Source: an uncultured Gammaproteobacteria bacterium
Lineage (GTDB): Bacteria > Pseudomonadota > Gammaproteobacteria > UBA9214
Length of the DNA stretch: 64,000 nucleotides
Direction: 5' to 3'
Assembly (NCBI GenBank): GCA_963701505.1
Contig: CAVOZZ010000012.1
Coordinates: forward strand, 80,219 to 144,218
Part shown: positions 5,209 through 61,618 of the stretch, piece after piece
How the letters are laid out: every line of letters begins with the position of its first letter
Position numbering within the stretch: position 1 is the stretch's first letter
The notes under the pieces: model-generated
Told to the model about the DNA's origin: nothing
What the model saw: only the letters and a program-made list of their open reading frames with translations
The model's database searches: none
Position numbers and translations under genes: made by a program

Positions 5209-5210
<2 letters not shown>
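5173..5210. terminator. Bidirectional rho-independent terminator between tRNA-Leu and purA
   Basis: AAAAGGCCTGTGC ... GCACCGGCCTTTT forms a hairpin with one mismatch. It has a T-run on the plus strand and TTTTCTC on the minus strand. It starts right after the purA stop codon. Confidence 0.6.
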
Positions 5211-6547
<1,337 letters not shown>

Positions 6548-35593: not shown

Positions 35594-36463
35594 TCAGGAA
35601 AACACACGTTTGGCGGTTTTGCCGATCAGGGCGGGGTTGCGCACCACGTGACACCCAGTTCTTCCATCAGGTCCATCTTGGCGTTGGCGGTATCGGCCTC
35701 ACCCGAGATGATCGCACCGGCATGGCCCATGCGGCGACCGGGTGGCGCCGAGACACCGGCAACAAAACCCACCACCTTCTTGCTCATGTTCTCTTTTGCC
35801 CAGCGGGCGGCCTCGACTTCCTGCGGCCCGCCGATCTCGCCGATCATGATGACGGCTTCCGTCTCGGGGTCTGCTTCAAAGGCACGCAGCACCGTGACGA
35901 AGTCGGTGCCATTGACCGGATCACCGCCAATACCCACCGAGGTCGTCTGCCCCATGCCCAGTTCGGACATCTGCTGCACGGCCTCGTAGTTGAGGGTGCC
36001 GGAACGCGACACCACGCCGATGCGGCCCGGCGTATAGATATGCGAGGGCATGATGCCGACCTTGCAGGCACCCGGGGTAATGATGCCCGGCGTGTTCGGA
36101 CCGATGATGATGGCATCCTTGCCAGCGGCATAGCGTTTCACACGCACCATGTCCTGTACCGGAATGCCGTCGGCAATCACCACGATGACGCCAATGCCGG
36201 CTTCCAGTGATTCCATGATGGCATCCGCTGCAAACGGTGGCGGTACAAAAATGCCACTGACATCGGCACCGGTCTCGGCAACCGCCTGGTGCACGGTGTC
36301 GAACACCGGCAAGCCGAGATGCTCCTGCCCGCCCTTGCCCGGCGTCACGCCACCGACCACCGTGGTGCCGTTGTTGCATGGATTCTTCGGCATGAAAGGT
36401 CGCGTGCTGACCGGTGAAACCCTGGATGATGACACGTGAATGCTTGTGGACAAATACGCTCAT
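35594..36463 (-). pseudogene. mtkB: Succinyl-CoA synthetase-family alpha subunit, most likely malate--CoA ligase MtkB; frame-disrupted (2 shifts, near 36385 and 35645)
   Basis: MSVFVHKHSRVIIQGFTGQHATFHAEE is followed by GTTVVGGVTPGKGG...PPPFAADAIMES...GIPVQDMVRVKRY...SRSGTLNYEA...MIGEIGGPQEVEAARWAKEN...GHAGAII. The last 18 aa are in another frame. The motifs resemble MtkB more than SucD from memory, and the gene lies next to mcl. Confidence 0.7.
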
Positions 36464-37629
36464 GCTGTGCCCTCCAGTGCGGCAACGACCTTGGTGGCCG
36501 CATCGTCAAGATTGTCGGCCATGATAAACGGGAAACCGGATGCCTTGAGAATCGGCGCACCCTTTTCAACATTGGTCCCGGCCAGACGCACCACGATCGG
36601 TACCTGTATGTGCAGCTCGCGCATCGCCTGCACCAGCCCCTCGGCAATCCAGTCGCAGCGATTGATACCGGCAAAGATATTCACCAGGATGGCTTTTACA
36701 TTCGGGTCCTGCAGCACGATACGGAAGGCATTGCCGACCTTCTCGGGCGATGCACCACCGCCCACATCCAGGAAGTTGGCCGGCTTGCCGTTGTGAAAAC
36801 TGATCGCATCCATGGTCGCCATGGCCAGTCCGGCGCCGTTGACGATGCAGCCGACATTGCCATCCAGTGCAATGTAGTTGAGTCCGTGACCGGACGCCTC
36901 GACTTCCTTGACATCCTCTTCATCAAAATCGCGCAGCTCGATAATGTCGGGATGCCGGTACAGGGCATTACTGTCGAAGGACATCTTTGCATCCAGCGCC
37001 ATCAAGCGACCCGTCGTCGATATCAGCCAGCGGATTGATTTCCGCCAGCAGCGCATCTTTATCCCGGAAGCAGCGATACAGTGCCTGCATAATCTTGGCC
37101 GTCTCACCGATCTGCTTGCCTGCAGCCCCATCCTGGCAGCAATCTTGCGGCACTGAAAACCCGCCAGTCCGATGGCAGGATCTACCGCTTCACGGATGAC
37201 ACGGTCCGGATCTGTTTTTGCGACTTCCTCGATATTCATGCCACCGGACGCCGAGGCAATCACGGTAATTCGTTGTGTGGCACGGTCAATGACCATGCCG
37301 AGGTAATATTCCTTGTTGATGTTGCAGGCCTGCTCGACCAGAACGCGCTGCACCAGCCGGCCCTCTGCACCGGTTTGCGGGGTGACCAGGTGGGTGCCGA
37401 TCATTTCGTCGGTGAATTGCCTGACCTCATCCAGGGAGGAGGCGACCTTGACGCCACCGCCCTTGCCACGGCCACCGGCATGAATCTGCGCCTTGACGAC
37501 CCAGCGTTCGCCGCCCAGATCTTCCGCGATGGTGGCGGCATTGTCTACATTGTGTGCAACACGGCCATTCGGGACCGGCACACCAAAACCCCGCAGCAGT
37601 TCCTTGGTCTGGTACTCATGAATATTCAA
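36460..37629 (-). CDS. mtkA: Succinyl-CoA synthetase-family beta subunit, most likely malate--CoA ligase MtkA; ORF open, but about 37010-37125 is read out of frame
   Basis: The 389-aa ORF has an ATP-grasp N-terminus (MNIHEYQTKELLRGFGVPVP) and NIFAGINRCDWIAEG, which is MtkA-like (E. coli SucC has NIFGGIVRCDLIA). The conserved AGKQIGETAKIMQALYRCFRDKDALLAEINPLADIDDG is found only in the alternative frame (ORF 36968-37153). Confidence 0.7.
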   Translation of the reverse strand: MNIHEYQTKELLRGFGVPVPNGRVAHNVDNAATIAEDLGGERWVVKAQIHAGGRGKGGGVKVASSLDEVRQFTDEMIGTHLVTPQTGAEGRLVQRVLVEQACNINKEYYLGMVIDRATQRITVIASASGGMNIEEVAKTDPDRVIREAVDPAIGLAGFQCRKIAARMGLQASRSVRRPRLCRHCIAASGIKMRCWRKSIRWLISTTGRLMALDAKMSFDSNALYRHPDIIELRDFDEEDVKEVEASGHGLNYIALDGNVGCIVNGAGLAMATMDAISFHNGKPANFLDVGGGASPEKVGNAFRIVLQDPNVKAILVNIFAGINRCDWIAEGLVQAMRELHIQVPIVVRLAGTNVEKGAPILKASGFPFIMADNLDDAATKVVAALEGTA

Positions 37630-37663: not shown

Positions 37664-38638
37664 TTACTTGCGTGCCGCGAGTGATTTCTCGATCTGCGCG
37701 ACTTTGTCCACCATCACCTGCGCCTGGCGAATGGAGGCCGCGTCGATCAGCCGGCCGTCCAGCGACACGGCACCCTTGCCCTGGGCCGCGGCTTCCTTCA
37801 TGGCGACCAGGATGCGGCGCGCACGCTCGACTTCAGCCTCGGGCGGTGTAAACACTTCGTTGGCCAGTGCAATCTGTGACGGGTGTATGGCCCACTTGCC
37901 CTCGACACCCAGTGCGGCAACACTGCGGGAGACGGCCAGATAACCATCCGGATCGTTAAAATCACCAAACGGTCCATCGATCGGACGCAGTCCGTAGGCA
38001 CGACAGGCAACCACCATGCGGGAAATGGCAAAATGCCACTGGTCGCCCCAGTGACGCTCACGCCGACCCTCGCTGTCAGGGTGCGTCAGGGTGTAGTAAT
38101 CGTGTTTGCACCACCCATGTTGGTGGTGCGTGCCTGTGTCGAGGCCGCGTAATCAGCGACACCGAACACCATGGCCTCCATGCGTTCCGGGCAGGTCTGC
38201 GCAATGCTTTCGACATTCGCCATGCCCATTGCGGTTTCTATCAGTACATGAAGATTGATACGCTTGATTCCCTTGGCCGCCTCGATCTGCTCCAGCATGG
38301 TTGGAGACAAACAAGATATCCGAGGGAGAACCCACCTTGGGTATCAGGATCGTATCGAGCTTGTCGCCGGCCTGTTCGACCACGTCGACGATATCGCGGT
38401 AACAGTAGTGGGTATCCAGGCCATTGATGCGCACCGAGACACTGCAGTTCGACCAGTCGAGATCATTCAGCGCTTCAATCACGTTTTTGCGCGCCTGCGC
38501 CTTGTCATCCGGCGCCACGGCGTCCTCAAGGTCCAGGAAGACCATATCAGCACCGGCGGTGGGTGCCTTTTCAAGCATGCGTACATTGCTGCCGGGGACG
38601 GCCAGTTCACTGCGGTGCAGACGGTTTCGTAGAGCCAT
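37664..38638 (-). pseudogene. mcl: Malyl-CoA lyase (HpcH/HpaI aldolase / citrate-lyase beta-like family), frame-disrupted (2 shifts, near 38300 and 38062)
   Basis: The first piece reads MALRNRLHRSELAVPGSNVRMLEKA...FLDLEDAVAPDDK. The second reads MLEQIEAAKGIKRINLHVLIETAMG...VFGVADYAAS. The third reads HDYYTLTHPD...WHFAISRMVVACRAYGLRPIDGPFGDF...KWAIHPSQI. Confidence 0.82.
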
Positions 38639-39031
38639 GATGTACCTCTAGTCAGAATGATCCAATGCAGGGCGTCCGGCCATTCGCCTGGTGCCGGTCG
38701 ACGTGCCATCGGGACCAGGCCGGTGCAAACAAAGCCGCGTAATATACAATGTCGGGGCGAGTATTGGAATGTGGAAGCGCGCGAGCAACCGCCATGACCA
38801 CAACTTGCAAGGCACAGGGCGGACACCACACATTACACATATTATATATTATTTATCAATTGTATAGCTATATTTCTTCATGCTTTCTCTATACCTGACC
38901 AAGGGCCTTCCTGTGTACTTTTGCCTTACTTCGCAGCGGCGCTTCTATATAATCTGCACCCCCGGGACAGCACCCCGGCATCGCATGACTACCAACGGAG
39001 ACCACCAACGGCTTACACCGGGAGGCAAGGC

Positions 39032-39544
39032 ATGAAATTATTACAGGGACTGTGTGTCGCAATGCTGCTGGGCAGCCCGCTTGCACATGGCAGCAGCAGT
39101 GATCCTGGCAAGGTCATTGCCGGATGGGTGGAAAAGATCAGCCTGGTGGAACAGCCAGTGCTGCTGAAGGCCAAACTGGACACCGGTGCCAAGACCTCGT
39201 CCATCCATGCCATCAATGTAGAGCCATTCATGCGCGAGGGTGAGCGCTGGGTGAGGTTCGACCTGCAGCTGAAAGACATTGAGGATAAACAACACACCCT
39301 CCACATGGAGAAGCCCAGATCGAGGCGTGTGCGTATCAAGGATGACGATGGTGAGCATGACCCGCGCTCCGTGATTGAACTGGAGATCTGTTTTGACGGG
39401 CGCAAACACGTTACAGAATTTACACTCGCAGACCGTTCTGAATATATATACGATGTGCTACTGGGTCGCGAGTTTCTGCAAGGCATCGCGGTCGTAGACC
39501 CTGAAAGCACATTCCTTACACAGGCAAACTGCCCGGCACCATGA
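39032..39544 (+). CDS. Secreted retropepsin-like protease (Zn_protease/RimB-like family)
   Basis: A GGGAGG SD precedes the ATG at 39032. The signal peptide is MKLLQGLCVAMLLGSPLAHG. The protein carries the aspartic-protease-type motifs KLDTGAKTSS and LLGREFL. It is the first gene of a four-gene operon. Confidence 0.8.
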   Translation: MKLLQGLCVAMLLGSPLAHGSSSDPGKVIAGWVEKISLVEQPVLLKAKLDTGAKTSSIHAINVEPFMREGERWVRFDLQLKDIEDKQHTLHMEKPRSRRVRIKDDDGEHDPRSVIELEICFDGRKHVTEFTLADRSEYIYDVLLGREFLQGIAVVDPESTFLTQANCPAP

Positions 39545-39563
39545 CCGTTACGAAAACAGCAGC

Positions 39564-41093
39564 ATGAATAGCTTAACCGCAAGAGGCTGGGCAGTGGCGC
39601 TGATACTGCTTGGACTGGCGATCACGGCTTACAAGGCCTACGAACTGGGTCTGCCACTGACACCCGAGCAGCATGCCGATGTGTGGACAGTGCAGGCACA
39701 GGTAGCATTCAAGGGCAAGGGCGGGCCGGCAAAACTTTCACTGTTCATTCCTGAAAACACCCCGGGCTTCATGTTACTGGATGAGGATTTCATCTCCAGC
39801 CGCTATGGGCTGACCATAGCGAAGTCACATGAAAACCGAAGAGCCGACTGGGCGATACGCCGGGCGAAAGGCGCACAAACCCTCTATTACAGAATATCGG
39901 TGGCCCGATCAAACCTGAACGTCGACTGGGAAACGAAGCCCGAGTTCCCTACCCCTCCGGAGTACGAGGAACCCTACGCCTCTGCAATCCGCGCAATTAT
40001 CGAGGATGTGCGTGAAGAGTCCGCCGATGTTGAGTCATATACGCTGGAGCTACTCAAGCAACTCAACTCAAGCGCGCCAAATGAAAACGTGGAACTGATC
40101 CGCGACCAGGCAAGCAATGCCGGCCAGTGGACAAACGAAATCATCAACGTGCTGAAAGGTGTCCGCATCCCGGCGCGCATAATCTGGGGGATCGATATCA
40201 ACGACTCGGCAAATAACGCCACACTGCGGCCGTTGCTGCAGGTGCATAATGGCAGCAACTGGCTGAGCTTCGATCCGGAAACCGGCAGAGAAGGTATCCC
40301 GGTGAATTTTCTTGTCTGGAAAGTCGGCGACAAGAGTGTCTCGGCACTGGATGGCGGCAGTGATCTGAACATCAATTTCTCGGTAACCCGCACCTATGCC
40401 GAACTGATCGATATTGCCCGCCAGGGCGCCGCGAAACGGGATTCCTTCTTTTCTGAATTTTCCCTGCTTTCATTGCCGGTACAGAACCAGAATGCCTACC
40501 AGTTGCTGCTGATGCTGCCGCTGGGCGCATTACTGGTGGTGTTCCTGAGAACCATCATCGGACTCAAGACCTTCGGTACTTTCATGCCCATCCTGATCGC
40601 CATGGCCTTTCGGGAGACGCAGCTCTTCTGGGGCGTGCTCATGTTCAGCCTGATTGTTTCCATTGGACTGATGATTCGTTTTTATCTTGAGAAACTGTAT
40701 CTGTTGCTGGTTCCGCGACTGGCCTCGGTACTGGTTATTGTCGTGATTCTCATGCTGGTTATCAGCCTCATGACCAACCAGCTGGGAGTCGAACGCCTGC
40801 TGTCCATCTCCCTGTTCCCGATGGTCATCCTTGCCATGACCATCGAGCGTATGTCGATAACCTGGGAGGAAAACGGGGCACGGAATGCCATTCTCCAGGG
40901 CCTTGGCAGCCTCTTGGTCGCCTCGATTGGCTACGTGGTCATGACAAACGAGAACCTGATGTATCTCATCTTTGTTTTTCCGGAGTTATTGCTGGTAGTA
41001 CTGGGTCTGTGTCTGTGGATGGGCGGTTATACCGGCTATCGACTGACGGAACTGGTACGTTTCAAGGGCATGCTGGGCAAGGAAGAAAAATGA
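39564..41093 (+). CDS. Inactive-transglutaminase domain fused to 7 transmembrane helices
   Basis: The 509-aa protein has one N-terminal TM segment. A Cys-free extracytoplasmic domain of about 300 aa follows, then seven hydrophobic segments (LLLMLPLGALLVVFL ... LLLVVLGLCLWMGG). This matches the family usually linked to RimK-related ligases. Confidence 0.8.
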   Translation: MNSLTARGWAVALILLGLAITAYKAYELGLPLTPEQHADVWTVQAQVAFKGKGGPAKLSLFIPENTPGFMLLDEDFISSRYGLTIAKSHENRRADWAIRRAKGAQTLYYRISVARSNLNVDWETKPEFPTPPEYEEPYASAIRAIIEDVREESADVESYTLELLKQLNSSAPNENVELIRDQASNAGQWTNEIINVLKGVRIPARIIWGIDINDSANNATLRPLLQVHNGSNWLSFDPETGREGIPVNFLVWKVGDKSVSALDGGSDLNINFSVTRTYAELIDIARQGAAKRDSFFSEFSLLSLPVQNQNAYQLLLMLPLGALLVVFLRTIIGLKTFGTFMPILIAMAFRETQLFWGVLMFSLIVSIGLMIRFYLEKLYLLLVPRLASVLVIVVILMLVISLMTNQLGVERLLSISLFPMVILAMTIERMSITWEENGARNAILQGLGSLLVASIGYVVMTNENLMYLIFVFPELLLVVLGLCLWMGGYTGYRLTELVRFKGMLGKEEK

Positions 41094-42061
41094 GATTCTT
41101 TGCCACACCAGCGGAACTGCGCGCACGCGGTGTACTGGGAATAAACAAGCGCAACGCAGACTACATCATGCGCTACAATCCGCGCAGACTCTTTCCACTG
41201 GTTGACAACAAGCTTGAAACCAAGAAACTGGCACTGGAAGGCGGTATCGCGGTACCGGAACTCTACGGGGTGGTAGCCATTGAGCATCAGGTACAGGAGA
41301 TGGCTAGCTTGCTTGCCGATCACCAGGCGCTGGTAATCAAACCGGCACACGGCAGCGGCGGTAACGGCATCCTGGTCATCGGTGGTCGCATGGGTAATTT
41401 TTTTCGCCGGGCGAATGGCTCCCTGCTTTCAATAGAGGCCATACAACACCATACCTCAAATATTCTCAGCGGCATGTACAGTCTCGGTGGCATCCCTGAC
41501 AAGGCCATCCTGGAATACCGTGTTGACTTCGATCCGATGTTTGAACACATCAGCTACCAGGGCGTACCTGACATCAGAATCATTGTTTTTAAAGGAATCC
41601 CGACTGCCGCCATGATCCGCCTGCCTACCCGCGACTCTGATGGCAAGGCCAACCTGCACCAGGGTGCAGTCGGACTCGGGGTTAATATCGCGACCGGTGA
41701 AACCAGCTATGCTGTACACCATAATCACCTTGTCGAGCATCATCCCGATACCGGTCACGAAACCACCGGCATTGTCATTCCTCACTGGGATAACATGCTG
41801 CGGCTGGCGATGAAATGTGCAGACACGGTTGGCCTGGGTTACCTCGGTGTGGATATCGTCATCGACCGTACCCTTGGACCATTGATGCTGGAACTGAATG
41901 CGCGCCCCGGTCTGAGTATTCAGCTTGCTATCGGCCATGGCCTGCTGAATAGCCTCCAGAGGGTCGAAGCATGCCAACATTTACCAAAGAATATGGATGC
42001 ACGACTGGAATTCGCTAAAGGTATCCGTCCATGCGAAGATATAAGTGAGGTGATCAACTGA
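41090..42061 (+). CDS. RimK-related ATP-grasp ligase (alpha-L-glutamate ligase-like protein)
   Basis: The ATG overlaps the upstream stop (ATGA at 41090-41093). The protein reads MRFFATPAELRARGVLGINKRNADYIMRYNPRRLFPLVDNKLETKKLA with ATP-grasp core motifs (VIKPAHGSGGNGI, DIRIIVF, GYLGVDIVID, LELNARPG). Confidence 0.85.
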   Translation: MRFFATPAELRARGVLGINKRNADYIMRYNPRRLFPLVDNKLETKKLALEGGIAVPELYGVVAIEHQVQEMASLLADHQALVIKPAHGSGGNGILVIGGRMGNFFRRANGSLLSIEAIQHHTSNILSGMYSLGGIPDKAILEYRVDFDPMFEHISYQGVPDIRIIVFKGIPTAAMIRLPTRDSDGKANLHQGAVGLGVNIATGETSYAVHHNHLVEHHPDTGHETTGIVIPHWDNMLRLAMKCADTVGLGYLGVDIVIDRTLGPLMLELNARPGLSIQLAIGHGLLNSLQRVEACQHLPKNMDARLEFAKGIRPCEDISEVIN

Positions 42062-42077
42062 TTCGCATGTGTACCTT

Positions 42078-42123
42078 TTTTATGAAATCAAGCAACCGTC
42101 TTTTATGAAATCAAGCAACCGTC
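42078..42123 (+). repeat. Perfect 23-bp tandem duplication spanning the start codon of the next gene
   Basis: TTTTATGAAATCAAGCAACCGTC occurs twice, at 42078-42100 and 42101-42123. The first ATG (42082) gives an 8-codon uORF, MKSSNRLL. Its TGA (42106-42108) overlaps the second ATG (42105). Confidence 0.9.
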
Positions 42124-43427
42124 GAAACAGGCTGACTGCCAGAGCCTTCCTGTTACTCATCCCGCTCACCGCAACAACCGCGGCCGTCTCCGGGAAACCG
42201 CTGCAATCGCCCGCAACTGACAGCGAACAGCCGCAAGCCGGCAACCCGCAGCCAACAGAGCTCGCAGCACTGGGAGAACCTCCGGTCGCACCGAGCCTTG
42301 ACCTGAGGCAGGTTGCGCCGTTACCAAGACCCGTACCCACCGTCGAAGCCTTTCCAGAGACAGCCATACAGACAGATACCGGCCAGCAAGCCAATGCGGA
42401 GCCCGAACCCTTTGAGAACGGCGACGAGCATAAACTGGTGATCCTCGGATCGGAAGTTGCCCCGGGCACAGCCACGCGCCTGTCATGGACTCCCGATGGC
42501 AACATCTCCGGCCTGGCCACACCCACACCGGTCATGGTGATCAGGGGCAACACCCCCGGCAAGACCATGTGCATGACAGCGGCTGTGCACGGTGATGAAC
42601 TGAATGGTATCGAAATCGTGCGCCGTGTAATGTATGACATCGACCCGGAAAAGCTGACCGGTACTATTATTGGCATACCGATTGTCAATCTGCAGGGCTT
42701 CCAGAGAGGCTCCCGCTACCTTTCCGACCGCCGCGACCTGAATCGTTATTTCCCCGGCGAGGCCACTGGCAGTCTTGCAGCGCGTACCGCCTGGTCGCTT
42801 TTCAATGAAGTCATCGTACATTGTGATTTCCTGGTTGACATGCATACAGGGTCTCTGCGACGCACCAATATGCCGCAGATACGCGCCGATATACGCTTCA
42901 AGAATGTCGCGGATTTCACCGATGGCTTCGGCAAGATTGCAGTCGTACACAGTACCGGCAGACCAGGCATGCTGCGCTTCGCTGCTGTTGCCAACGGCAT
43001 CCCTGCCGCCACACTGGAAGTCGGTGAATCGCTGCGCATACAGGAAGACCAGATAGACGTCGGCGTTGGCAGCATTAACCGTCTACTGGAACACGAGGGC
43101 ATGTACTCACGCCCCTTTACCTGGGGCGAGCCGGAGCCAGTCTACTACAAGTCCAGCTGGATACGGGCCGAAAACGGTGGCATCCTGTTCAGCAAGAAGG
43201 AAGTGGGTGACCTGATCAGGGTCGACGACGTGCTTGGCTCCATTACCGACCCGATCACCAACGAAACCAGCAATATCCTGTCAACGATAAACGGCCGCAT
43301 CATTGGAATGGCCGTCAATCAATTCGTGATGCCGGGCTATGGCTGCTATCACATCGGAATCGAGGCAACAGAAGAAAAACTCGCCGACCTCGGGGTCACA
43401 GACGGCATTGAGGGCGAAGTTGAATAA
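42105..43427 (+). CDS. Secreted zinc hydrolase of the succinylglutamate desuccinylase/aspartoacylase (AstE/AspA, M14-like) family
   Basis: The signal-like N-terminus is MKSSNRRNRLTARAFLLLIPLTATTAAVSG, followed by a Pro-rich linker. The catalytic region reads MCMTAAVHGDELNGIEIVRRV...HTGS. The ORF track starts at GTG 42069. Confidence 0.8.
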   Translation: MKSSNRRNRLTARAFLLLIPLTATTAAVSGKPLQSPATDSEQPQAGNPQPTELAALGEPPVAPSLDLRQVAPLPRPVPTVEAFPETAIQTDTGQQANAEPEPFENGDEHKLVILGSEVAPGTATRLSWTPDGNISGLATPTPVMVIRGNTPGKTMCMTAAVHGDELNGIEIVRRVMYDIDPEKLTGTIIGIPIVNLQGFQRGSRYLSDRRDLNRYFPGEATGSLAARTAWSLFNEVIVHCDFLVDMHTGSLRRTNMPQIRADIRFKNVADFTDGFGKIAVVHSTGRPGMLRFAAVANGIPAATLEVGESLRIQEDQIDVGVGSINRLLEHEGMYSRPFTWGEPEPVYYKSSWIRAENGGILFSKKEVGDLIRVDDVLGSITDPITNETSNILSTINGRIIGMAVNQFVMPGYGCYHIGIEATEEKLADLGVTDGIEGEVE

Positions 43428-43694
43428 CATTGCAGTCTGCCCTGCTGACTAACAGACTGAACGACATCCTGTAACCAACGGTTGAAGGGGTACCGTCAAA
43501 ACCGTGGCAGTGAAGCCGCTCCCTGATAAATAGCCCGATGTAGCCCGTATTCGCCCCCCGCCAGTCGGCAAATTTGACTGGAAACCGCCTGCAATACATT
43601 GCTTGCCGGAACACTCCCTATTAAATTGTTCAACTTGCTGTTGCACACGTAAAGCGTGACAGCATGTTCATTTGACAAGCGGCAGGACATTTCC

Positions 43695-45437
43695 ATGGCT
43701 ACCCGGGACAAGATTTACATCGAGCAGATAAAGCTGCTCAGCGAAAACATCCCGCGCGGCCAGCTCCTCAATATGGTGATTGCCCTGGCGTTTGCGCTTG
43801 TCATGCTGATACAGTCAAGCAGAGCCGCCGTGATCTCCTGGCTTGCGCTTCTTTATGGTGTATCCCTTATCCGCCATCTCCTGCACAAATATTATTTCCC
43901 ACCGGCCAATAACAAGCCGATAACGGTCCACACACGCCACTTCTATGCCGCCGCATCGGCAATGGCCGGCACCGTATGGGGTAGCGCAATGTTCTTCTTC
44001 AAGCCGGAAACCCTGGGCGAAATGCTGCCCATCGCCTTGATCCTCGCCGGTGTGATGGCCGGGGGAATCAGCGTACTTTCCTACCTGAAGGAATCCTATG
44101 CGAGTTTTGCAACCCCCATCGCCATCACGCTAATAACGGGTTTCTTTACGATGGGCCAGCAGACGGCAACGGTTATGGGATACATGCTCATCATCTATAC
44201 AGCTGCCTGCCTGTATTTCAGCCGCTCATTCAACAAGGTTCTGACCGAGACCCTGCGGCTAGAGCATCGCAATGATGCGCTTATGGCTGAGTTGCGAAAA
44301 GAGAAAGAAATGGCGGAACAGGCTAACAGGGCGAAATCCAGATTTCTCGCCGCGGCAAGCCACGATTTACGGCAGCCGCTGCACGCGCTGTCCCTGTTGT
44401 TCGAGGCAATCAAGGAGGCCGATTCCATTGAACTCAGGAGATCACTGTATCCGAAAATCGAGATGTCCATAGAGGCACTGAGTGGCCTTTTTAATGCACT
44501 GCTTGACATATCGAAGCTGGATGCCGGTGTAGTCGAGGCAAACCTCGAGGACTTTTATATTCAGGATGTTATCAAGGCGACAATGCATGAATATGAAACG
44601 CAGGCGGAAAACAAAAATCTTTCGATGAGAGTGCATTGCAGCGACAGCATCGTATATTCCGATCGTGTCTTCCTGGAGCGCATCATCAGAAACCTGTTAA
44701 GTAACGCCGTTCGCTATACCGAGGCAGGCGGGGTGCTGGTGTCATGCCGCAAGCGTGGCGATCGTGTCATGTTTCAGGTCTGGGATACGGGGATCGGCAT
44801 CCCTGAGGCAGAAATCAGCACCGTATTCAGTGAATTTTACCAGCTGCATAATATCCACAGAGACAGAAGCCAGGGACTTGGGCTCGGTCTTTCCATTGTA
44901 CGGAGACTCTGCGAGCTGCTGGATCATCCTGTTGAACTGAGCTCAAGGCCGGGCACTGGCAGTGTAGTCACTATTCTGATACCCGCTGGAAATCCACAAC
45001 ATGTTCGGAAAGAGAATCATCCTGCAGCGGCCTCGCCCTGGGACTTGACCGGGCTATGTGTGCTGGTTATTGATGATGATATCGAGGTCCTGGCCGCGAC
45101 TTCCGTGTTGCTGAAAAAGTGGGGTTGTCAGGTAATTACCGCGCTGTCATCCAGTGATGCCCTAGACAAGATCACCGCAGCAGCGGCAAAACCGGACTTC
45201 GCGTTATCCGACCTGCGCCTGCCTGGTAACCAAAACGGCATACAGGCGCTGGATGCAATACGCAGCAGGCTGGGCACCGATATCCCTGCAATCCTGATAA
45301 CGGGCGACACCCGGCCGGAACGAATTAACCTTGCCCGGCAAAGTGGGTACAAGGTATTACACAAGCCGCTGAAACCTGCACAACTGCGTACGGCCATTCA
45401 CCAGCTGCTCACTTCCCGTGCAGTTATTACTGGATAA
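43695..45437 (+). CDS. Hybrid sensor histidine kinase (multi-TM sensor, HisKA, HATPase_c and receiver)
   Basis: About six N-terminal TM segments have no large periplasmic loop. The H-box reads RFLAAASHDLRQPLHAL, with N/G boxes (RNLLSNAVRYT, DTGIGI, GLGLSIV). The C-terminal REC domain reads VLVIDDD...LSDLRLPG...LHKP. The ORF is open from 43656. Confidence 0.88.
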   Translation: MATRDKIYIEQIKLLSENIPRGQLLNMVIALAFALVMLIQSSRAAVISWLALLYGVSLIRHLLHKYYFPPANNKPITVHTRHFYAAASAMAGTVWGSAMFFFKPETLGEMLPIALILAGVMAGGISVLSYLKESYASFATPIAITLITGFFTMGQQTATVMGYMLIIYTAACLYFSRSFNKVLTETLRLEHRNDALMAELRKEKEMAEQANRAKSRFLAAASHDLRQPLHALSLLFEAIKEADSIELRRSLYPKIEMSIEALSGLFNALLDISKLDAGVVEANLEDFYIQDVIKATMHEYETQAENKNLSMRVHCSDSIVYSDRVFLERIIRNLLSNAVRYTEAGGVLVSCRKRGDRVMFQVWDTGIGIPEAEISTVFSEFYQLHNIHRDRSQGLGLGLSIVRRLCELLDHPVELSSRPGTGSVVTILIPAGNPQHVRKENHPAAASPWDLTGLCVLVIDDDIEVLAATSVLLKKWGCQVITALSSSDALDKITAAAAKPDFALSDLRLPGNQNGIQALDAIRSRLGTDIPAILITGDTRPERINLARQSGYKVLHKPLKPAQLRTAIHQLLTSRAVITG

Positions 45438-46077
45438 GTCCATGGTGACGGGCAATACTGACACATTCAGTCCTGTTTGCAGCACCGAGTGCCCGCAACA
45501 GCGCGCTTACATGTACCTTGACAGTATTTTCAGTCAGTAACAGCATCCGCGATATCTGCTTGTTTGAATATCCGCTGGCCAGTAATTTCAGAACTTCATA
45601 TTGTCTTTTGGTGATACCACAGTTGCCGGGCACGTCATGCACATGCTTGTCATATGCCTGCAGCGGCGGCTGGCGCTGGATTTGATTATGGACTTCATCG
45701 GGTATGAAGATCCCACCCTCCATGACGGTACGGAGCGCGCCAAGCAATTTCTTCCCGGAGTAGGATTTGGGTATAAACCCCATGGCGCCCGCTGCAATCA
45801 CCGCGCTGATGGCATGCGGGTCATCTTCTCCCGAGATAATGATGATTGGCAGACAGGTATTGCGGACACGTTTGTGTTGCATGATCGACAGAGCATCCAG
45901 TCCCGGCATGTGCAGATCCAGCAGCACAAGATCCAGTGCGGCACCTGAATCCAGATGGCTCACTGCCTCATCGGCGGAGGTGGCCTCCATGATTTCAACA
46001 TGATCATCGAGCAAGTTGATAAAATGCCGTATACCATCGATGAACAAAGGGTGATCATCAACGATCAGAATATGCAC
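45427..46077 (-). CDS. NarL/FixJ(LuxR)-family response regulator
   Basis: The REC domain reads MHILIVDDHPLF...LLDLHMPGLD. The C-terminal HTH_LuxR reads ITKRQYEVLKLLASGYSNKQISRMLLLTENTVKVHVSALL. The 3' end overlaps the kinase 3' end by 11 nt (convergent). Confidence 0.9.
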   Translation of the reverse strand: MHILIVDDHPLFIDGIRHFINLLDDHVEIMEATSADEAVSHLDSGAALDLVLLDLHMPGLDALSIMQHKRVRNTCLPIIIISGEDDPHAISAVIAAGAMGFIPKSYSGKKLLGALRTVMEGGIFIPDEVHNQIQRQPPLQAYDKHVHDVPGNCGITKRQYEVLKLLASGYSNKQISRMLLLTENTVKVHVSALLRALGAANRTECVSIARHHGLIQ

Positions 46078-47332: not shown

Positions 47333-47674
47333 CTATTCAGGCAGCCTGGGAGGAGGAGGAGTTTGCTCCTTGCCACTTGAGGGATTTACCACGATGGTGC
47401 TTGGCTGGCCGCCATAGCCCGGATAGCCTCCCCAGCCACCATAAGGGCCACCCCAGCCATAGGGGCCACCCCCGTAGGGCCCGTAGCCATAGGGACCATA
47501 GCCCCCGTAGTAACCACGGCCATACCGGTAATAATCATCATCGTCGTCGTCAAACCAGTCACCCGGGTTCATCATGTTGCCCATATTGAAGGCGTGTGCG
47601 ATGTTCGTCACCGCAAGAATTGCCACGCCAAGGGCTGCTGCTGTCGCTACTGAAGTGATTTTTTTCCGATTCAT
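47333..47674 (-). CDS. Secreted Gly/Tyr-rich low-complexity protein, sulfur-globule-protein (SgpA/SgpB)-like
   Basis: A GAGG SD precedes the start. The signal peptide is MNRKKITSVATAAALGVAILAVTNIAHA. The mature part has a DDDDDD run and then YYRYGRGYYGGYGPYGYGPYGGGPYGWGGPYGGWGGYPGYGG. Confidence 0.6.
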   Translation of the reverse strand: MNRKKITSVATAAALGVAILAVTNIAHAFNMGNMMNPGDWFDDDDDDYYRYGRGYYGGYGPYGYGPYGGGPYGWGGPYGGWGGYPGYGGQPSTIVVNPSSGKEQTPPPPRLPE

Positions 47675-60374: not shown

Positions 60375-61618
60375 ATGCAAACCTCTTTGCCACAGCAATT
60401 GTTGCAAACCGCTTCCGGACAGGAAGCAGATGAAATCCTGCGTAATTGTGTGCATTGCGGATTCTGCAATGCGACCTGCCCGACCTACCAGCTGACCGGC
60501 GATGAACTGGATGGTCCACGCGGCCGCATCTACCTGATCAAGCAGGTCCTCGAGGGCCAGCAGGCAACCCGCACGACACAGCGTCATCTTGACCGCTGCC
60601 TCAGCTGCCGCGCCTGTGAAACCACCTGCCCCTCCGGCGTGGATTACCATCGCCTGCTGGATACCGGACGCGAGCTGGTTGAGCAACGGGTCGAACGGAC
60701 CGTCGGTGACCGCCTGTTGCGGCGTACCCTGCGCATGCTGTTGCCATGGCCAGCCCGTTTTGCGCCCTTGTTACGCCTCGGCCAGGTGGTCCGGCCACTG
60801 CTGCCTGCGGCACTGAAGCAACACGTCCCTGCAAGGCGAGGACATTCCCCGAGCACTGCCCGGCAAGCCGCATGACCGGGTGATGCTGTTACTGAATGGC
60901 TGCGTACAGCCCTCACTGGCGCCACAAATCAACAGTGCAACCATTCGGGTGCTGGATGCACTGGGCATCAGCGTAGCAGTCGAAAAAGGCAGCGGTTGCT
61001 GCGGCGCCCTCAGTTATCACCTCAACGCAACCAGTGAGGCACAGGCCTTCATGCGTACCAACATCGATGCCTGGTGGCCGGCAATCGAACAGGGTGCAGA
61101 AGCCATTGTCGTAACCGCCAGTGGCTGCGCACCGATGGTCAAGGACTACGGCCGTCTACTGGCAGCAGACAGTGCCTATGCCGACAAGGCAAGACGTGTC
61201 AGCGAACTGGCAAGGGATATCAGTGAAATCATTACCGCTGAATTCAGGTCCTCGATGCCTTTGCAAAGACGGAGGCGGACAGCCGCATTGCGTTTCATTC
61301 ACCCTGTACCCTGCAGCACGCCCAGCGCATCACGGGCAAGGTGGAGAGACATACTCACCCGACTCGGGTTTACACTTAACCGCGGTCCGCAACAGTCACC
61401 TCTGTTGCGGCTCGGCAGGCAGCTACTCGATCCTGGAGCCCGGACTTGCAACCGCACTGCGCGACAACAAGCTGGCTACCTTGCAGGCCGACCGGCCTGC
61501 TATGATCGCGACCGCCAATATCGGCTGCCTGATGCACATGACTGCGCATGCCGGGGTACCGGTTAGGCACTGGATAGAATTGCTTGAACCACTGATACGC
61601 CAACAGGACACGACATAA
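60375..61618 (+). pseudogene. glcF: Glycolate oxidase iron-sulfur subunit GlcF, frame-disrupted (about 4 shifts, near 60832, 61243, 61345 and 61378)
   Basis: Two 4Fe-4S motifs are present (CVHCGFCNATCPT, CLSCRACETTCPS). CCG-domain pieces (LLLNGCVQPSLAP, RIAFHSPCTLQHAQRITGKVE, DILTRLGFTL, SHLCCGSAGSYS) are spread over three frames. Confidence 0.88.

What the first reader, a model, noticed from the sequence alone, without database searches (positions are those of the whole stretch)
39032..43427. Four-gene operon: secreted retropepsin-like protease, inactive-transglutaminase/7TM protein, RimK-related ATP-grasp ligase and secreted AstE/AspA-type hydrolase
SEEN. The four genes are co-directional and tightly packed. 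The gaps are 19 nt, an ATGA stop/start overlap at 41090-41093, and 43 nt.
- Gene 1 has a signal peptide plus the aspartic-protease-type motifs KLDTGAKTSS and LLGREF.
- Gene 2 has one TM segment, a ~300-aa extracytoplasmic domain containing no cysteine at all, and a C-terminal 7-TM bundle.
- Gene 3 is a cytoplasmic ATP-grasp enzyme beginning GINKRNADYIMRYNPRRLFPLVDNKLETK.
- Gene 4 has a signal peptide, a Pro-rich linker and the zinc-hydrolase motif AAVHGDELNG.

ESTABLISHED. RimK is an ATP-grasp ligase that adds glutamates to ribosomal protein S6. RimB of the Pseudomonas rimABK operon belongs to the same retropepsin-like family as gene 1. The protease + 7TM-transglutaminase + ATP-grasp triad has been pointed out by comparative genomics as a putative peptide-ligation system. 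I know of no biochemical product, substrate or phenotype for it.

INFERENCE. The ligase is inside the cell, two hydrolases are outside, and a 7TM protein sits between them. This suggests a cytoplasmically made acidic peptide or amide that is exported or sensed through the 7TM protein and then trimmed in the periplasm. The additional secreted M14-like gene and the neighbouring hybrid kinase are, as far as I remember, not part of the minimal triad.
Basis: partly seen in the sequence, partly recalled or inferred. Interest (0 to 1): 0.8.

Follow-up and report, generated by a model that had tools for sequence, protein, structure and literature searches.

The report
rloABC operon plus periplasmic zinc hydrolase
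This is an intact copy of the recently described rloABC envelope-stress operon (a secreted protease that cuts poly-glutamate, a membrane protein, and a RimK-like ligase), with a fourth gene for a secreted zinc hydrolase that lies next to rlo genes in about a third of related genomes and probably finishes the breakdown of whatever the ligase makes.

Summary
The family calls are also right: Zn_protease/RloA-like, Transglut_i_TM+7TM_transglut, TIGR02291 above its cutoff, and AstE_AspA_cat.

The claim that no phenotype is known is out of date. Genes 1-3 are an rloABC operon (Lormand et al., mBio 2025). In P. aeruginosa, RloA cleaves runs of 8 or more Glu in vitro. Loss of all RloA paralogs causes hypo-osmotic lethality, which is suppressed by deleting rloB or rloC.

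What I add:
- The fourth gene is the only recurrent neighbour of rloABC. It is present in 28 of 80 related genome loci, in three gene arrangements.
- A paralogous clade without rlo sits beside mltD-like and lpxL-like envelope genes.
- RloC-type ligases are elsewhere fused to the 7TM module, to retropepsin-like domains and to MATCAP-type carboxypeptidases.
- The hybrid kinase next door is not a conserved neighbour.

Best reading: RloC makes a cytoplasmic glutamyl polymer or tail, RloB exports or presents it, RloA cuts it internally, and gene 4 trims it from the end. The product itself remains unknown. This is a new variant of a known kind, of moderate interest.

The parts
38639..39031 (.). Upstream intergenic region shared with a divergent, frameshifted HpcH/citrate-lyase-beta-like gene. 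It is the presumed promoter region and contains an AT-rich stretch at about 38836-38900. A GGGAGG Shine-Dalgarno sequence lies 7 nt before the g1 ATG.
   Evidence: The sigma-70 consensus scan found nothing here and Rfam found nothing, so the promoter is inferred from position only.
39032..39544 (+). rloA-like gene for a secreted retropepsin-like aspartic peptidase (170 aa). Signal-like segment aa 1-20 (nt 39032-39091). Catalytic DTG at aa 50-52 (nt 39179-39187).
   Evidence: PF05618, E 1.3e-35. NCBIfam RloA3 2.4e-40, RloA 4e-25, RimB 1e-23, all below the equivalog/exception cutoffs. PDB 9g59/9g58 (RloA structures), E 2e-19 and 5e-18; K-x-DTG, R-x-VIEL and DRS are conserved in the alignment.
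39564..41093 (+). rloB-like gene (509 aa). N-terminal TM aa 4-26. Periplasmic inactive transglutaminase-like domain aa ~27-303 (nt 39642-40472). C-terminal 7-helix membrane module aa ~304-509 (nt 40473-41090), ending in a conserved tail GYTGYRLxELxRF that is predicted to be cytoplasmic.
   Evidence: PF14400, E 4e-52, and PF14402, E 1e-100. NCBIfam RloB, 459 bits. AF2 model pLDDT 78. The periplasmic domain matches the transglutaminase-like cysteine protease 3isr, E 4e-9. The Cys and His of the triad are replaced, by N185 and Arg. The single Cys is at 483. The strongest conservation is in the membrane module, including the charged residues R350, E351, R385, E428, R429, E435, E436 and E474.
41090..42061 (+). 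rloC-like gene for a cytoplasmic ATP-grasp ligase (323 aa) of the 'alpha-L-glutamate ligase-like' family. Its start overlaps the rloB stop (ATGA).
   Evidence: TIGR02291, 442 bits, above the cutoff of 314. PF14397, E 3e-89. Only distant from RimK (PDB 5zct, E 4e-4). No hydrophobic segment.
42105..43427 (+). Accessory gene for a secreted AstE/AspA-family (M14-clan) zinc hydrolase (440 aa).
- Signal-like segment: aa 1-30.
- Disordered Pro-rich linker: aa 31-110, carrying the conserved motif APSLDLRQVAP (aa 62-72, nt 42288-42320).
- Catalytic domain: aa 111-440.
- H162/E165 (HGDE): nt 42588-42599.
- N213/R214 (DLNRYFPG): nt 42735-42758.
- H247 (DMHTG): nt 42837-42851.
- E305 (TLEVGE): nt 43011-43028.
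   Evidence: PF24827, E 8e-39. Far below the cutoffs of AstE, ASPA and DoeB. PDB 3cdx, E 7e-16, with the metal and catalytic motifs aligned. Those residues are invariant in 62 relatives. In the AF2 model the core is confident and the N-terminus is disordered. Best fold matches are DoeB, 3cdx, CphZ and AstE. Linked to rlo in 28 of 80 genome loci and in 12 of 80 metagenome loci.
42078..42123 (+). Exact 23-nt tandem duplication (TTTTATGAAATCAAGCAACCGTC, two copies) that duplicates the g4 start. It creates an out-of-frame mini-ORF, MKSSNRLL* (42082-42108), whose stop overlaps the g4 ATG.
   Evidence: It is also present on an independently assembled metagenome contig, L001. It is absent from relatives L004 and L084.

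Best explanation
Genes 1-3 are an orthologous rloABC operon, and gene 4 is a lineage-variable fourth component of it.

Proposed working, step by step:
1. RloC, a cytoplasmic RimK-related ATP-grasp ligase, builds an alpha-glutamyl oligomer or polymer, either free or as a tail on a carrier. This is inferred.
2. RloC works docked on the cytoplasmic face of RloB's 7-helix module. That module passes the product to the periplasm, where RloB's catalytically dead transglutaminase-like domain holds or presents it. This is inferred from fusions and from the genetics.
3. Secreted RloA dimers cut long Glu runs internally. This has been shown in vitro for the P. aeruginosa enzyme.
4. The gene-4 enzyme is a periplasmic zinc hydrolase of the AstE/AspA branch of the M14 clan. 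Characterised members of that branch release a C-terminal amino acid from N-acyl-amino acids or dipeptides. Here it would degrade the short fragments or stub that RloA cannot cut (RloA needs 8 or more Glu), giving free glutamate. This is inferred.

Unchecked accumulation of the RloB/RloC product is harmful. That explains why loss of the proteases is lethal in low osmolarity and is rescued by removing RloB or RloC.
For: Identity.
- Profile hits for all four proteins, with TIGR02291 above its cutoff.
- PDB hits to the RloA crystal structures.
- The rloA-rloB-rloC order is conserved: rloB-rloC adjacent in 80 of 80 loci, rloA upstream in 66 of 80.

Published genetics and biochemistry (PMC12239564).
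- RloA cleaves 8E and 10E but not 6E or shorter.
- The triple rloA1-3 deletion is lethal on salt-free LB and is fully rescued by deleting rloB or rloC.

Ligase-membrane coupling.
- rloB and rloC overlap by ATGA.
- 20 of the 150 best RloC-family representatives are single polypeptides of 7TM_transglut followed by ATPgrasp_ST.
- One such fusion aligns to full-length RloB, E 5e-44.
- The 7TM module and the C-terminal tail are the most conserved parts of RloB.

The periplasmic domain as a former peptidase.
- 7 fusions carry a transglutaminase-like N-domain. P0272 and P0301 match Pfam Transglut_core.
- Four (P0301, P0364, P0368, P0369) keep the catalytic Cys motif. His and Asp were checked only in P0368, by alignment.
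- The window's RloB has lost both Cys and His.

Gene 4 belongs to the system.
- It is the only recurrent neighbour of rloABC.
- It is present in 28 of 80 loci: 18 downstream, 3 upstream on the same strand, 7 divergent.
- 10 of its 11 closest metagenomic relatives follow rloC.
- The rlo-linked copies fall in at least 3 separate clades of the family tree.

Gene 4 is probably active and exported.
- HxxE...H, the catalytic Glu and the carboxylate-binding N-R are invariant.
- An N-terminal hydrophobic segment is present in 53 of 62 relatives.

A carboxypeptidase is a natural partner.
- 15 of the 150 RloC-family representatives are proteins of about 800 aa that carry a MATCAP-type metallocarboxypeptidase region after the ligase.
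- 12 of the 15 also have a retropepsin-like middle segment, which is mostly degenerate.
- The Pfam MATCAP domain itself was checked only in P0289.

A precedent exists: the AstE/AspA-family enzyme CphZ finishes degradation of cyanophycin, another ATP-grasp-made polymer. CphZ is a fold-search hit; its role is taken from that entry's description and from my own knowledge.
Against: - No product of RloC is known in any organism.
- RloC is only remotely similar to RimK (E about 4e-4 pairwise), and its Pfam family is named 'sugar-transfer associated'. Glutamate as substrate is therefore an extrapolation from RloA's in-vitro specificity.
- Characterised AstE/AspA enzymes act on small N-acyl-amino acids or dipeptides, not on peptides.
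- Gene 4 is absent from 52 of 80 related rlo loci and from P. aeruginosa, so it is dispensable for the core function.
- A large paralogous clade lies in mltD-like/lpxL-like/Kdo-kinase neighbourhoods without rlo. That points to cell-wall or LPS-related substrates.
- Export by the 7TM module is unsupported by any structural analogue.
- Signal peptides were judged by hydropathy only.
Confidence: 0.55

Rival explanations
1. The system acts on peptidoglycan. RloC adds amino acids to a wall precursor or a wall-modifying protein. Gene 4 is a periplasmic murein-peptide carboxypeptidase or amidase, in the manner of MpaA or Csd4, which cut at the D-Glu-mDAP bond. RloA and gene 4 together tune cell-wall peptides and so cell shape and turgor resistance.
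For: - The rlo-less paralog clade of gene 4 is divergently paired with an SLT+LysM (MltD-like) lytic transglycosylase in 32 loci. It is followed by lipid A acyltransferase, Kdo kinase and heptosyltransferase genes.
- MpaA and Csd4 appear among the fold matches, E about 1e-7.
- Published phenotypes of rlo mutants are wall-like: cell shape, beta-lactam sensitivity and hypo-osmotic lysis. V. cholerae rlo is induced by the wall-damage system VxrAB.
Against: - Sequence and fold are much closer to AstE, AspA, DoeB and CphZ (E 1e-20 to 1e-16) than to MpaA or Csd4.
- The RloA substrate shown in vitro is poly-alpha-L-Glu of 8 or more residues, which is unlike stem peptides.
- Neighbourhood evidence from a paralogous clade need not transfer to the rlo-linked clade.
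Confidence: 0.2
2. RloB is a sensor or signal transducer rather than an exporter. Its periplasmic domain senses an envelope cue and regulates RloC activity on a cytoplasmic target. The periplasmic hydrolases control the ligand of the sensor domain.
For: - A 7-helix membrane module with a large extracytoplasmic ligand-binding-type domain is a common receptor architecture.
- The ligase is fused to, or overlaps, the cytoplasmic end of the 7TM module. That is equally compatible with allosteric control.
- No transporter-like structural analogue was found.
Against: - RloA's preferred substrate matches what a RimK-like ligase would make. That is hard to explain if ligase and protease act on unrelated molecules in different compartments.
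- Many invariant charged residues lie inside the membrane helices, which is more typical of a conduit or a membrane enzyme.
- Relatives carry a catalytically competent-looking periplasmic peptidase domain on the same polypeptide as the ligase.
Confidence: 0.13
3. Gene 4 is an unrelated neighbour, for example a periplasmic deacylase for nutrient scavenging, that merely happens to lie after rloC in this lineage.
For: - It is absent from most rlo loci, including the characterised P. aeruginosa operon.
- Many close homologs stand alone (L002).
- The 43-nt gap lacks an obvious Shine-Dalgarno sequence.
Against: - Linkage recurs in four different gene arrangements (three in the genome set, a fourth, convergent one in the metagenome set) and in at least 3 clades, including Myxococcota-type MAGs.
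- It is the only recurrent neighbour among 80 loci.
- No terminator lies between g3 and g4.
Confidence: 0.07

Closest known systems
rloABC operon of Pseudomonas aeruginosa (Lormand et al., mBio 2025; PMC12239564)
   Same: It has the same three protein families in the same order: a secreted retropepsin-like RloA with DTG, RloB with an inactive transglutaminase domain plus 7TM, and the cytoplasmic TIGR02291 ATP-grasp RloC.
   Different: - Sequences are diverged. The NCBIfam RloA/RloB models are of 'exception' or 'equivalog' type and score below their cutoffs.
- A fourth gene for a secreted AstE/AspA hydrolase follows rloC. It is not mentioned in that paper.
- Only one rloA copy is visible in this 64-kb window, against three paralogs in P. 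aeruginosa.
RimK/RimB (rimABK) ribosomal protein S6 glutamylation system
   Same: It pairs an ATP-grasp alpha-L-glutamate ligase with a retropepsin-like protease that trims poly-Glu. g1 hits the RimB model at E 1e-23, and g3 hits RimK-family models weakly.
   Different: - RimB is cytoplasmic and has no signal peptide.
- There is no membrane protein and no AstE/AspA gene.
- g3 scores far below the RimK cutoffs: 50 against 143 bits, and 27 against 331.
Cyanophycin metabolism (CphA synthetase, cyanophycinase, CphZ dipeptide hydrolase)
   Same: The logic is the same: a polymer made by an ATP-grasp enzyme, an endopeptidase, and then an AstE/AspA-family zinc hydrolase that splits the small end-products. 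CphZ is a strong fold match, E 1e-16.
   Different: The polymer differs (beta-Asp-Arg), all steps are cytoplasmic or extracellular without a 7TM partner, and there is no close sequence relationship. This is an analogy of mechanism, not membership.
Eukaryotic tubulin-code writers and erasers (TTLL glutamylases, CCP M14 deglutamylases, MATCAP/vasohibin carboxypeptidases)
   Same: An ATP-grasp ligase adds acidic tails and zinc carboxypeptidases remove them. Bacterial RloC-type ligases are fused to MATCAP-type domains in 15 of 150 representatives.
   Different: The ligase and hydrolase subfamilies differ. Here the erasers are periplasmic and the target is unknown.
AstE / ASPA / DoeB (succinylglutamate desuccinylase, aspartoacylase, N-acetyl-DABA deacetylase)
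   Same: Same Pfam catalytic domain, same zinc-binding motif (HxxE...H), catalytic Glu and carboxylate-binding Asn-Arg.
   Different: Those enzymes are cytoplasmic catabolic enzymes. Gene 4 has a signal-like N-terminus, a ~80-aa Pro-rich linker and an rlo context, and it scores far below every equivalog cutoff.

Membership tests
rloABC operon (P. aeruginosa type) | RloA: retropepsin-like aspartic peptidase with a DTG active site and an N-terminal signal peptide | tested here: met
   PF05618, E 1e-35. DTG at aa 50-52. Hydrophobic N-terminus ending AHG. PDB 9g59/9g58, E 2e-19 and 5e-18. The signal peptide was judged by hydropathy only.
rloABC operon (P. aeruginosa type) | RloB: inner-membrane protein with a periplasmic catalytically inactive transglutaminase domain and a 7TM module | tested here: met
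   PF14400 + PF14402. No Cys in the periplasmic domain. Triad Cys and His are substituted relative to an active-looking relative. Fold match to 3isr.
rloABC operon (P. aeruginosa type) | RloC: cytoplasmic ATP-grasp protein of the TIGR02291 'alpha-L-glutamate ligase-like' family | tested here: met
   442 bits against a cutoff of 314. No hydrophobic segment.
rloABC operon (P. aeruginosa type) | Co-directional rloA-rloB-rloC gene order | tested here: met
   Gaps of 19 nt and -4 nt. The same order is seen in 66 of 80 related loci.
rloABC operon (P. aeruginosa type) | NCBIfam name-level models (RloA, RloA2, RloA3, RloB) reach their cutoffs | tested here: not met
   RloA3 138 against 210 bits; RloB 459 against 900 bits. 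These are narrow Pseudomonas-level 'exception' or 'equivalog' models. The result shows divergence, not a different family.
rloABC operon (P. aeruginosa type) | RloA cleaves poly-Glu of 8 or more residues; loss of RloA is hypo-osmotically lethal and is suppressed by loss of RloB or RloC | not testable with these tools
   Only residue conservation could be checked. K48, D50, R112 (RxVIEL) and R135 (DRS) are retained in alignments to the crystallised RloA proteins. Mapping these to the published K46, D48, R114 and R137 is my inference.
RimK / RimB (rimABK) | RimK equivalog score; cytoplasmic RimB without a signal peptide | tested here: not met
   TIGR00768 50 against 143 bits; PRK10446 27 against 331; RimB 84 against 200. 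g1 has a signal-like N-terminus.
AstE/AspA family (PF24827; M14 clan) | Catalytic domain with the zinc ligands H-x-x-E and a distal H, a catalytic Glu, and Asn-Arg binding the substrate carboxylate | tested here: met
   PF24827, E 8e-39. H162, E165, H247, E305, N213 and R214 align with 3cdx and 6twl and are invariant in 62 relatives. Fold E 4e-20.
AstE, ASPA or DoeB proper (specific enzymes) | Equivalog-level similarity and cytoplasmic location | tested here: not met
   DoeB 61 against 403 bits; AstE 26 against 306; ASPA 28 against 180. Signal-like N-terminus plus linker.
M14 murein-peptide carboxypeptidases (MpaA, Csd4) | Closest sequence or fold relationship to these enzymes | tested here: not met
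   They rank 42nd-48th in the fold search, E about 1e-7, well behind the AstE/AspA-type structures. Activity is not testable here.

The most novel reading that the evidence does not exclude
The four genes encode a complete make-export-cut-trim cycle for a periplasmic poly-alpha-glutamate, which would be a previously unrecognised osmoregulated polyanion of the Gram-negative envelope, functionally comparable to anionic periplasmic glucans. RloC would polymerise it on the cytoplasmic face of RloB and RloB would translocate it. RloA and the gene-4 enzyme would set its length and amount. Gene 4 would then be the first periplasmic oligo-glutamate carboxypeptidase of the AstE/AspA family. Its conserved linker motif (APxLDLKxVAP) might dock it to the RloB periplasmic domain.
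Probability: 0.3. Interest if true: 0.7.

Novelty: new variant of a known kind. Interest (0 to 1): 0.45.

Why it matters
The rlo system affects osmotic survival, biofilm formation and beta-lactam tolerance in P. aeruginosa, yet the molecule it makes is unknown.

A fourth, recurrent partner from an enzyme family with well-understood chemistry narrows the search. That family releases a C-terminal amino acid from small N-acyl or dipeptide substrates. It predicts that the periplasmic end-products are short acidic peptides that must be cleared. It also supplies a simple enzyme whose substrate specificity can be assayed.

The fusions of the ligase to the 7TM module, and to a retropepsin-like segment plus a carboxypeptidase domain, give independent support for a physically coupled writer, membrane and eraser machine.

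Tried and rejected
- **Hybrid kinase and response regulator.** I tested whether the hybrid histidine kinase (43656-45437) and the NarL/ErdR-like response regulator (45427-46077, minus strand) belong to the system. No kinase homolog lies within 10 kb of rlo in any of 80 loci, including the closest relatives. Rejected.
- **Riboswitch or leader RNA.** The Rfam scan of 38400-43800 at E up to 1 found nothing.
- **Promoter and terminator scans.** They were uninformative: one internal promoter-like hit, below the shuffle expectation, and no + strand terminator inside the operon.
- **Fold search of full-length RloB.** It gave no solved analogue for the 7TM module. Only the periplasmic domain matched.
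- **Iyer et al. 2009 (PMC3268129).** This is the comparative-genomics source for these Pfam families. It is not held, so I could not check whether the AstE/AspA link was noted there. Text searches for RimK with succinylglutamate desuccinylase, and for inactive transglutaminase with aspartoacylase, found nothing relevant.
- **K. pneumoniae CfmP paper.** It concerns a TupA-like ATP-grasp and is not this family.
- **Cluster look-up.** The host is only placed as an uncultured gammaproteobacterium through its nearest loci, L004 and L005.
- **Linker motif as a marker of rlo linkage.** It is enriched in rlo-linked copies (18 of 41 against 8 of 69) but not exclusive to them, and the comparison is confounded by phylogeny.

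Full report
**Observation**

- The four ORFs are real and intact: g1 39032-39544, g2 39564-41093, g3 41090-42061, g4 42105-43427, all on the + strand.
- The gaps are 19 nt, an ATGA stop/start overlap, and 43 nt.
- g2 has a single cysteine (C483), in its last membrane helix. It has one N-terminal hydrophobic segment, and hydropathy and an AlphaFold2 model (pLDDT 78) agree on a C-terminal helical bundle.
- g1 and g4 begin with hydrophobic, signal-like segments, and g3 has none.
- The operon is bounded by a 393-nt intergenic region upstream and a 228-nt one downstream.

**Families**

- g1 matches Pfam Zn_protease/RimB-like (E 1e-35). Its best NCBIfam hits are the RloA3, RloA, RloA2 and RimB models.
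- g2 matches Transglut_i_TM plus 7TM_transglut, and the NCBIfam model 'osmotic stress tolerance membrane protein RloB'.
- g3 exceeds the trusted cutoff of TIGR02291, 'alpha-L-glutamate ligase-like protein' (442 against 314 bits).
- g4 matches AstE_AspA_cat (E 8e-39) but is far below the cutoffs of AstE, ASPA and DoeB.
- g1 also matches the two RloA crystal structures, 9G58 and 9G59.

**What is already known**

The NCBIfam names led to Lormand et al., mBio 2025 (PMC12239564).

- In P. aeruginosa the triad is called rloABC.
- RloA is a secreted retropepsin-like dimer with a basic substrate channel. It cleaves runs of 8 or 10 glutamates but not 6 or fewer.
- A mutant lacking all three RloA paralogs dies on salt-free medium. 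It forms little biofilm, is more sensitive to cell-wall antibiotics and is misshapen.
- Deleting rloB or rloC rescues these defects fully (osmotic) or partly (the others).
- The product of RloC and the physiological substrate of RloA are not known.
- A Shewanella transposon study found that disrupting the RloB-type gene causes over-production of membrane vesicles (PMC12096838).

**Gene 4 is a recurrent accessory of rlo**

A scan of one genome per species with an RloB alignment returned 80 loci at 46-86% identity. I ran tblastn with the window's proteins against them.

- rloB and rloC are adjacent in 80 of 80 loci.
- rloA lies directly upstream in 66 of 80.
- A gene-4 homolog lies within about 2 kb in 28 of 80. 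Of these, 18 are directly downstream of rloC, 3 are upstream on the same strand (Litorivivens and one other), and 7 are upstream and divergent (Oceanococcus, Abyssibacter, and MAGs labelled Myxococcota or Deltaproteobacteria).
- Clustering all flanking ORFs showed that gene 4 is the only neighbour family that recurs beyond single lineages.
- The hybrid kinase never recurs.

In the reverse direction, I looked at the 80 closest gene-4 relatives on metagenome contigs.

- 10 of the 11 most similar follow rloC.
- Two more distant ones are convergent with rlo.
- 68 have no rlo nearby.

A neighbour-joining tree of the catalytic domains puts the rlo-linked copies in at least three separate clades.

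A large sister clade (34 loci) has a different conserved neighbourhood. It has a divergent SLT+LysM (MltD-like) gene upstream, and a lipid A acyltransferase, a Kdo kinase and a heptosyltransferase downstream. The family as a whole is therefore envelope-associated, and one part of it has been recruited repeatedly to rlo.

**Gene 4 protein**

- The AF2 model has a disordered N-terminus (aa 1-107) and a confident core.
- The best solved-structure matches are DoeB, the 3cdx AstE/AspA protein, the cyanophycin dipeptide hydrolase CphZ, AstE, aminoacylase-3 and aspartoacylase.
- Classical M14 carboxypeptidases, including MpaA and Csd4, come later in the list.
- H162 and E165 (HGDE), H247, E305, and N213 and R214 align with the metal, catalytic and carboxylate-binding residues of these enzymes. 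They are invariant in 62 relatives.
- 53 of 62 relatives have an N-terminal hydrophobic peak.
- The enzyme is therefore predicted to be active and exported. It belongs to a branch whose known members release a C-terminal amino acid from small N-acyl or dipeptide substrates.

**Ligase, membrane module and erasers are physically linked elsewhere**

A full-library search with RloC found 464 representatives at E up to 1e-30. Among the best 150:

- 20 have a 7TM_transglut module fused directly in front of the ligase.
- 7 of those also carry an N-terminal transglutaminase-like domain. Four of the 7 (P0301, P0364, P0368, P0369) keep the catalytic Cys motif. The His and Asp were checked only in P0368, by alignment.
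- 34 have a retropepsin-like segment after the ligase.
- 15 are proteins of about 800 aa whose C-terminus matches the MATCAP region of P0289, a zinc carboxypeptidase domain confirmed by Pfam in P0289 only. 12 of these 15 also have the retropepsin-like segment, which is mostly degenerate.
- One fusion aligns with the window's RloB over its whole length (E 5e-44). That alignment shows that RloB has replaced the catalytic Cys by Asn185 and the His by Arg.

These fusions argue three things:

- The ligase sits at the cytoplasmic end of the 7TM module. The ATGA overlap and the highly conserved cytoplasmic tail of RloB fit this.
- The periplasmic domain descends from a peptidase that acted on the same product.
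- A zinc carboxypeptidase is a natural third enzymatic partner of this ligase and endopeptidase pair. That is the role I assign to gene 4.

**Mechanism proposed**

1. RloC makes a glutamyl oligomer, polymer or tail.
2. RloB translocates or presents it.
3. RloA cuts long runs.
4. Gene 4 removes what RloA cannot cut.

Only step 3 has been shown, and only in vitro and in another species. Steps 1, 2 and 4 are inferred. The published epistasis, in which the product of RloB and RloC is toxic when the proteases are missing, fits this order. A fixed periplasmic polyanion would also explain hypo-osmotic lethality, but that is my inference.

The main rival is a peptidoglycan-directed role. It is suggested by the mltD-linked paralogs and by the wall-like phenotypes.

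**Comparison and novelty**

- The triad is a member of the known rloABC kind.
- The four-gene form with a secreted AstE/AspA hydrolase is not mentioned in the rlo paper or in anything I could search.
- I could not read Iyer et al. 2009.
- I therefore rate it a new variant of a known kind. Interest is moderate: it does not overturn anything, but it gives a concrete handle on an open question, namely what RloC makes.

**Caveats**

- The window's assembly, or the genome itself, carries many frameshifted housekeeping genes.
- The four ORFs discussed are intact, and gene 4 is 100% identical to an independently assembled contig.
- Only the 80 best of at least 579 RloB loci were examined, so the 35% figure applies to relatives at 46% identity or more, not to the whole family.

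Noticed in passing
window 42078-42123: An exact 23-nt tandem duplication (TTTTATGAAATCAAGCAACCGTC, two copies) duplicates the start of gene 4. It creates an out-of-frame 8-codon mini-ORF, MKSSNRLL* (42082-42108), whose TGA overlaps the real ATG. It is also present on an independent metagenome contig (L001) and absent in relatives L004 and L084. Its effect on translation is unknown.
   Followed up: partly
window 5209-6502, 35626-36463, 36460-37629, 37664-38638, 60375-61566 (mostly minus strand): Several housekeeping genes are broken by frameshifts:
- purA;
- the sucD/mtkB-like gene;
- the sucC/mtkA-like gene, with two compensating shifts near 37000-37110;
- the HpcH/malyl-CoA-lyase-like gene.

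The glcF-like gene (60375-61566) also appears split into two ORFs in the ORF listing, but I did not check it for a frameshift. These are either assembly indel errors or pseudogenes. The rlo region is unaffected.
   Followed up: partly
window 42288-42320 (gene 4 aa 62-72); same motif in L003-L028, L084-L104: A short, strongly conserved motif, AP[NS][LIV]DL[KR]x[VI]AP, sits inside the otherwise variable, disordered Pro-rich linker of gene-4 family proteins. It is present in 18 of 41 rlo-linked copies and 8 of 69 unlinked copies. It may be a docking peptide, but its partner is unknown.
   Followed up: partly
L120-L163 (for example L140 3766-5673, L157 5628-6566, L160 5891-6469, L143 7703-8767): A paralogous clade of the gene-4 family without rlo has a conserved envelope neighbourhood. 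It has a divergent SLT+LysM lytic transglycosylase, then a lipid A acyltransferase, a Kdo kinase and a heptosyltransferase.
   Followed up: yes
proteins P0243-P0392 (RloC-family representatives): RloC-type ATP-grasp ligases occur in several fusions:
- 7TM-ligase fusions (20 of 150), some with an active-looking transglutaminase-like domain;
- ligase followed by a retropepsin-like segment (34 of 150);
- proteins of about 800 aa with a MATCAP-type carboxypeptidase region after the ligase (15 of 150), 12 of which also have the retropepsin-like segment;
- ligase-TPR fusions of about 1000 aa (about 9-10 of 150).
   Followed up: partly
window 47333-47674 (minus strand): A small secreted Gly/Tyr-rich protein (113 aa) with a run of six aspartates (DWFDDDDDDYY). 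It gives a weak hit to the glycine-rich protein family. No link to rlo was established.
   Followed up: no
window 43656-46077: A hybrid sensor kinase with a NahK/ErcS-type C-terminal half is convergent with, and overlaps by 11 nt, a NarL/ErdR-type response regulator. It is not conserved next to rlo in any related locus.
   Followed up: yes
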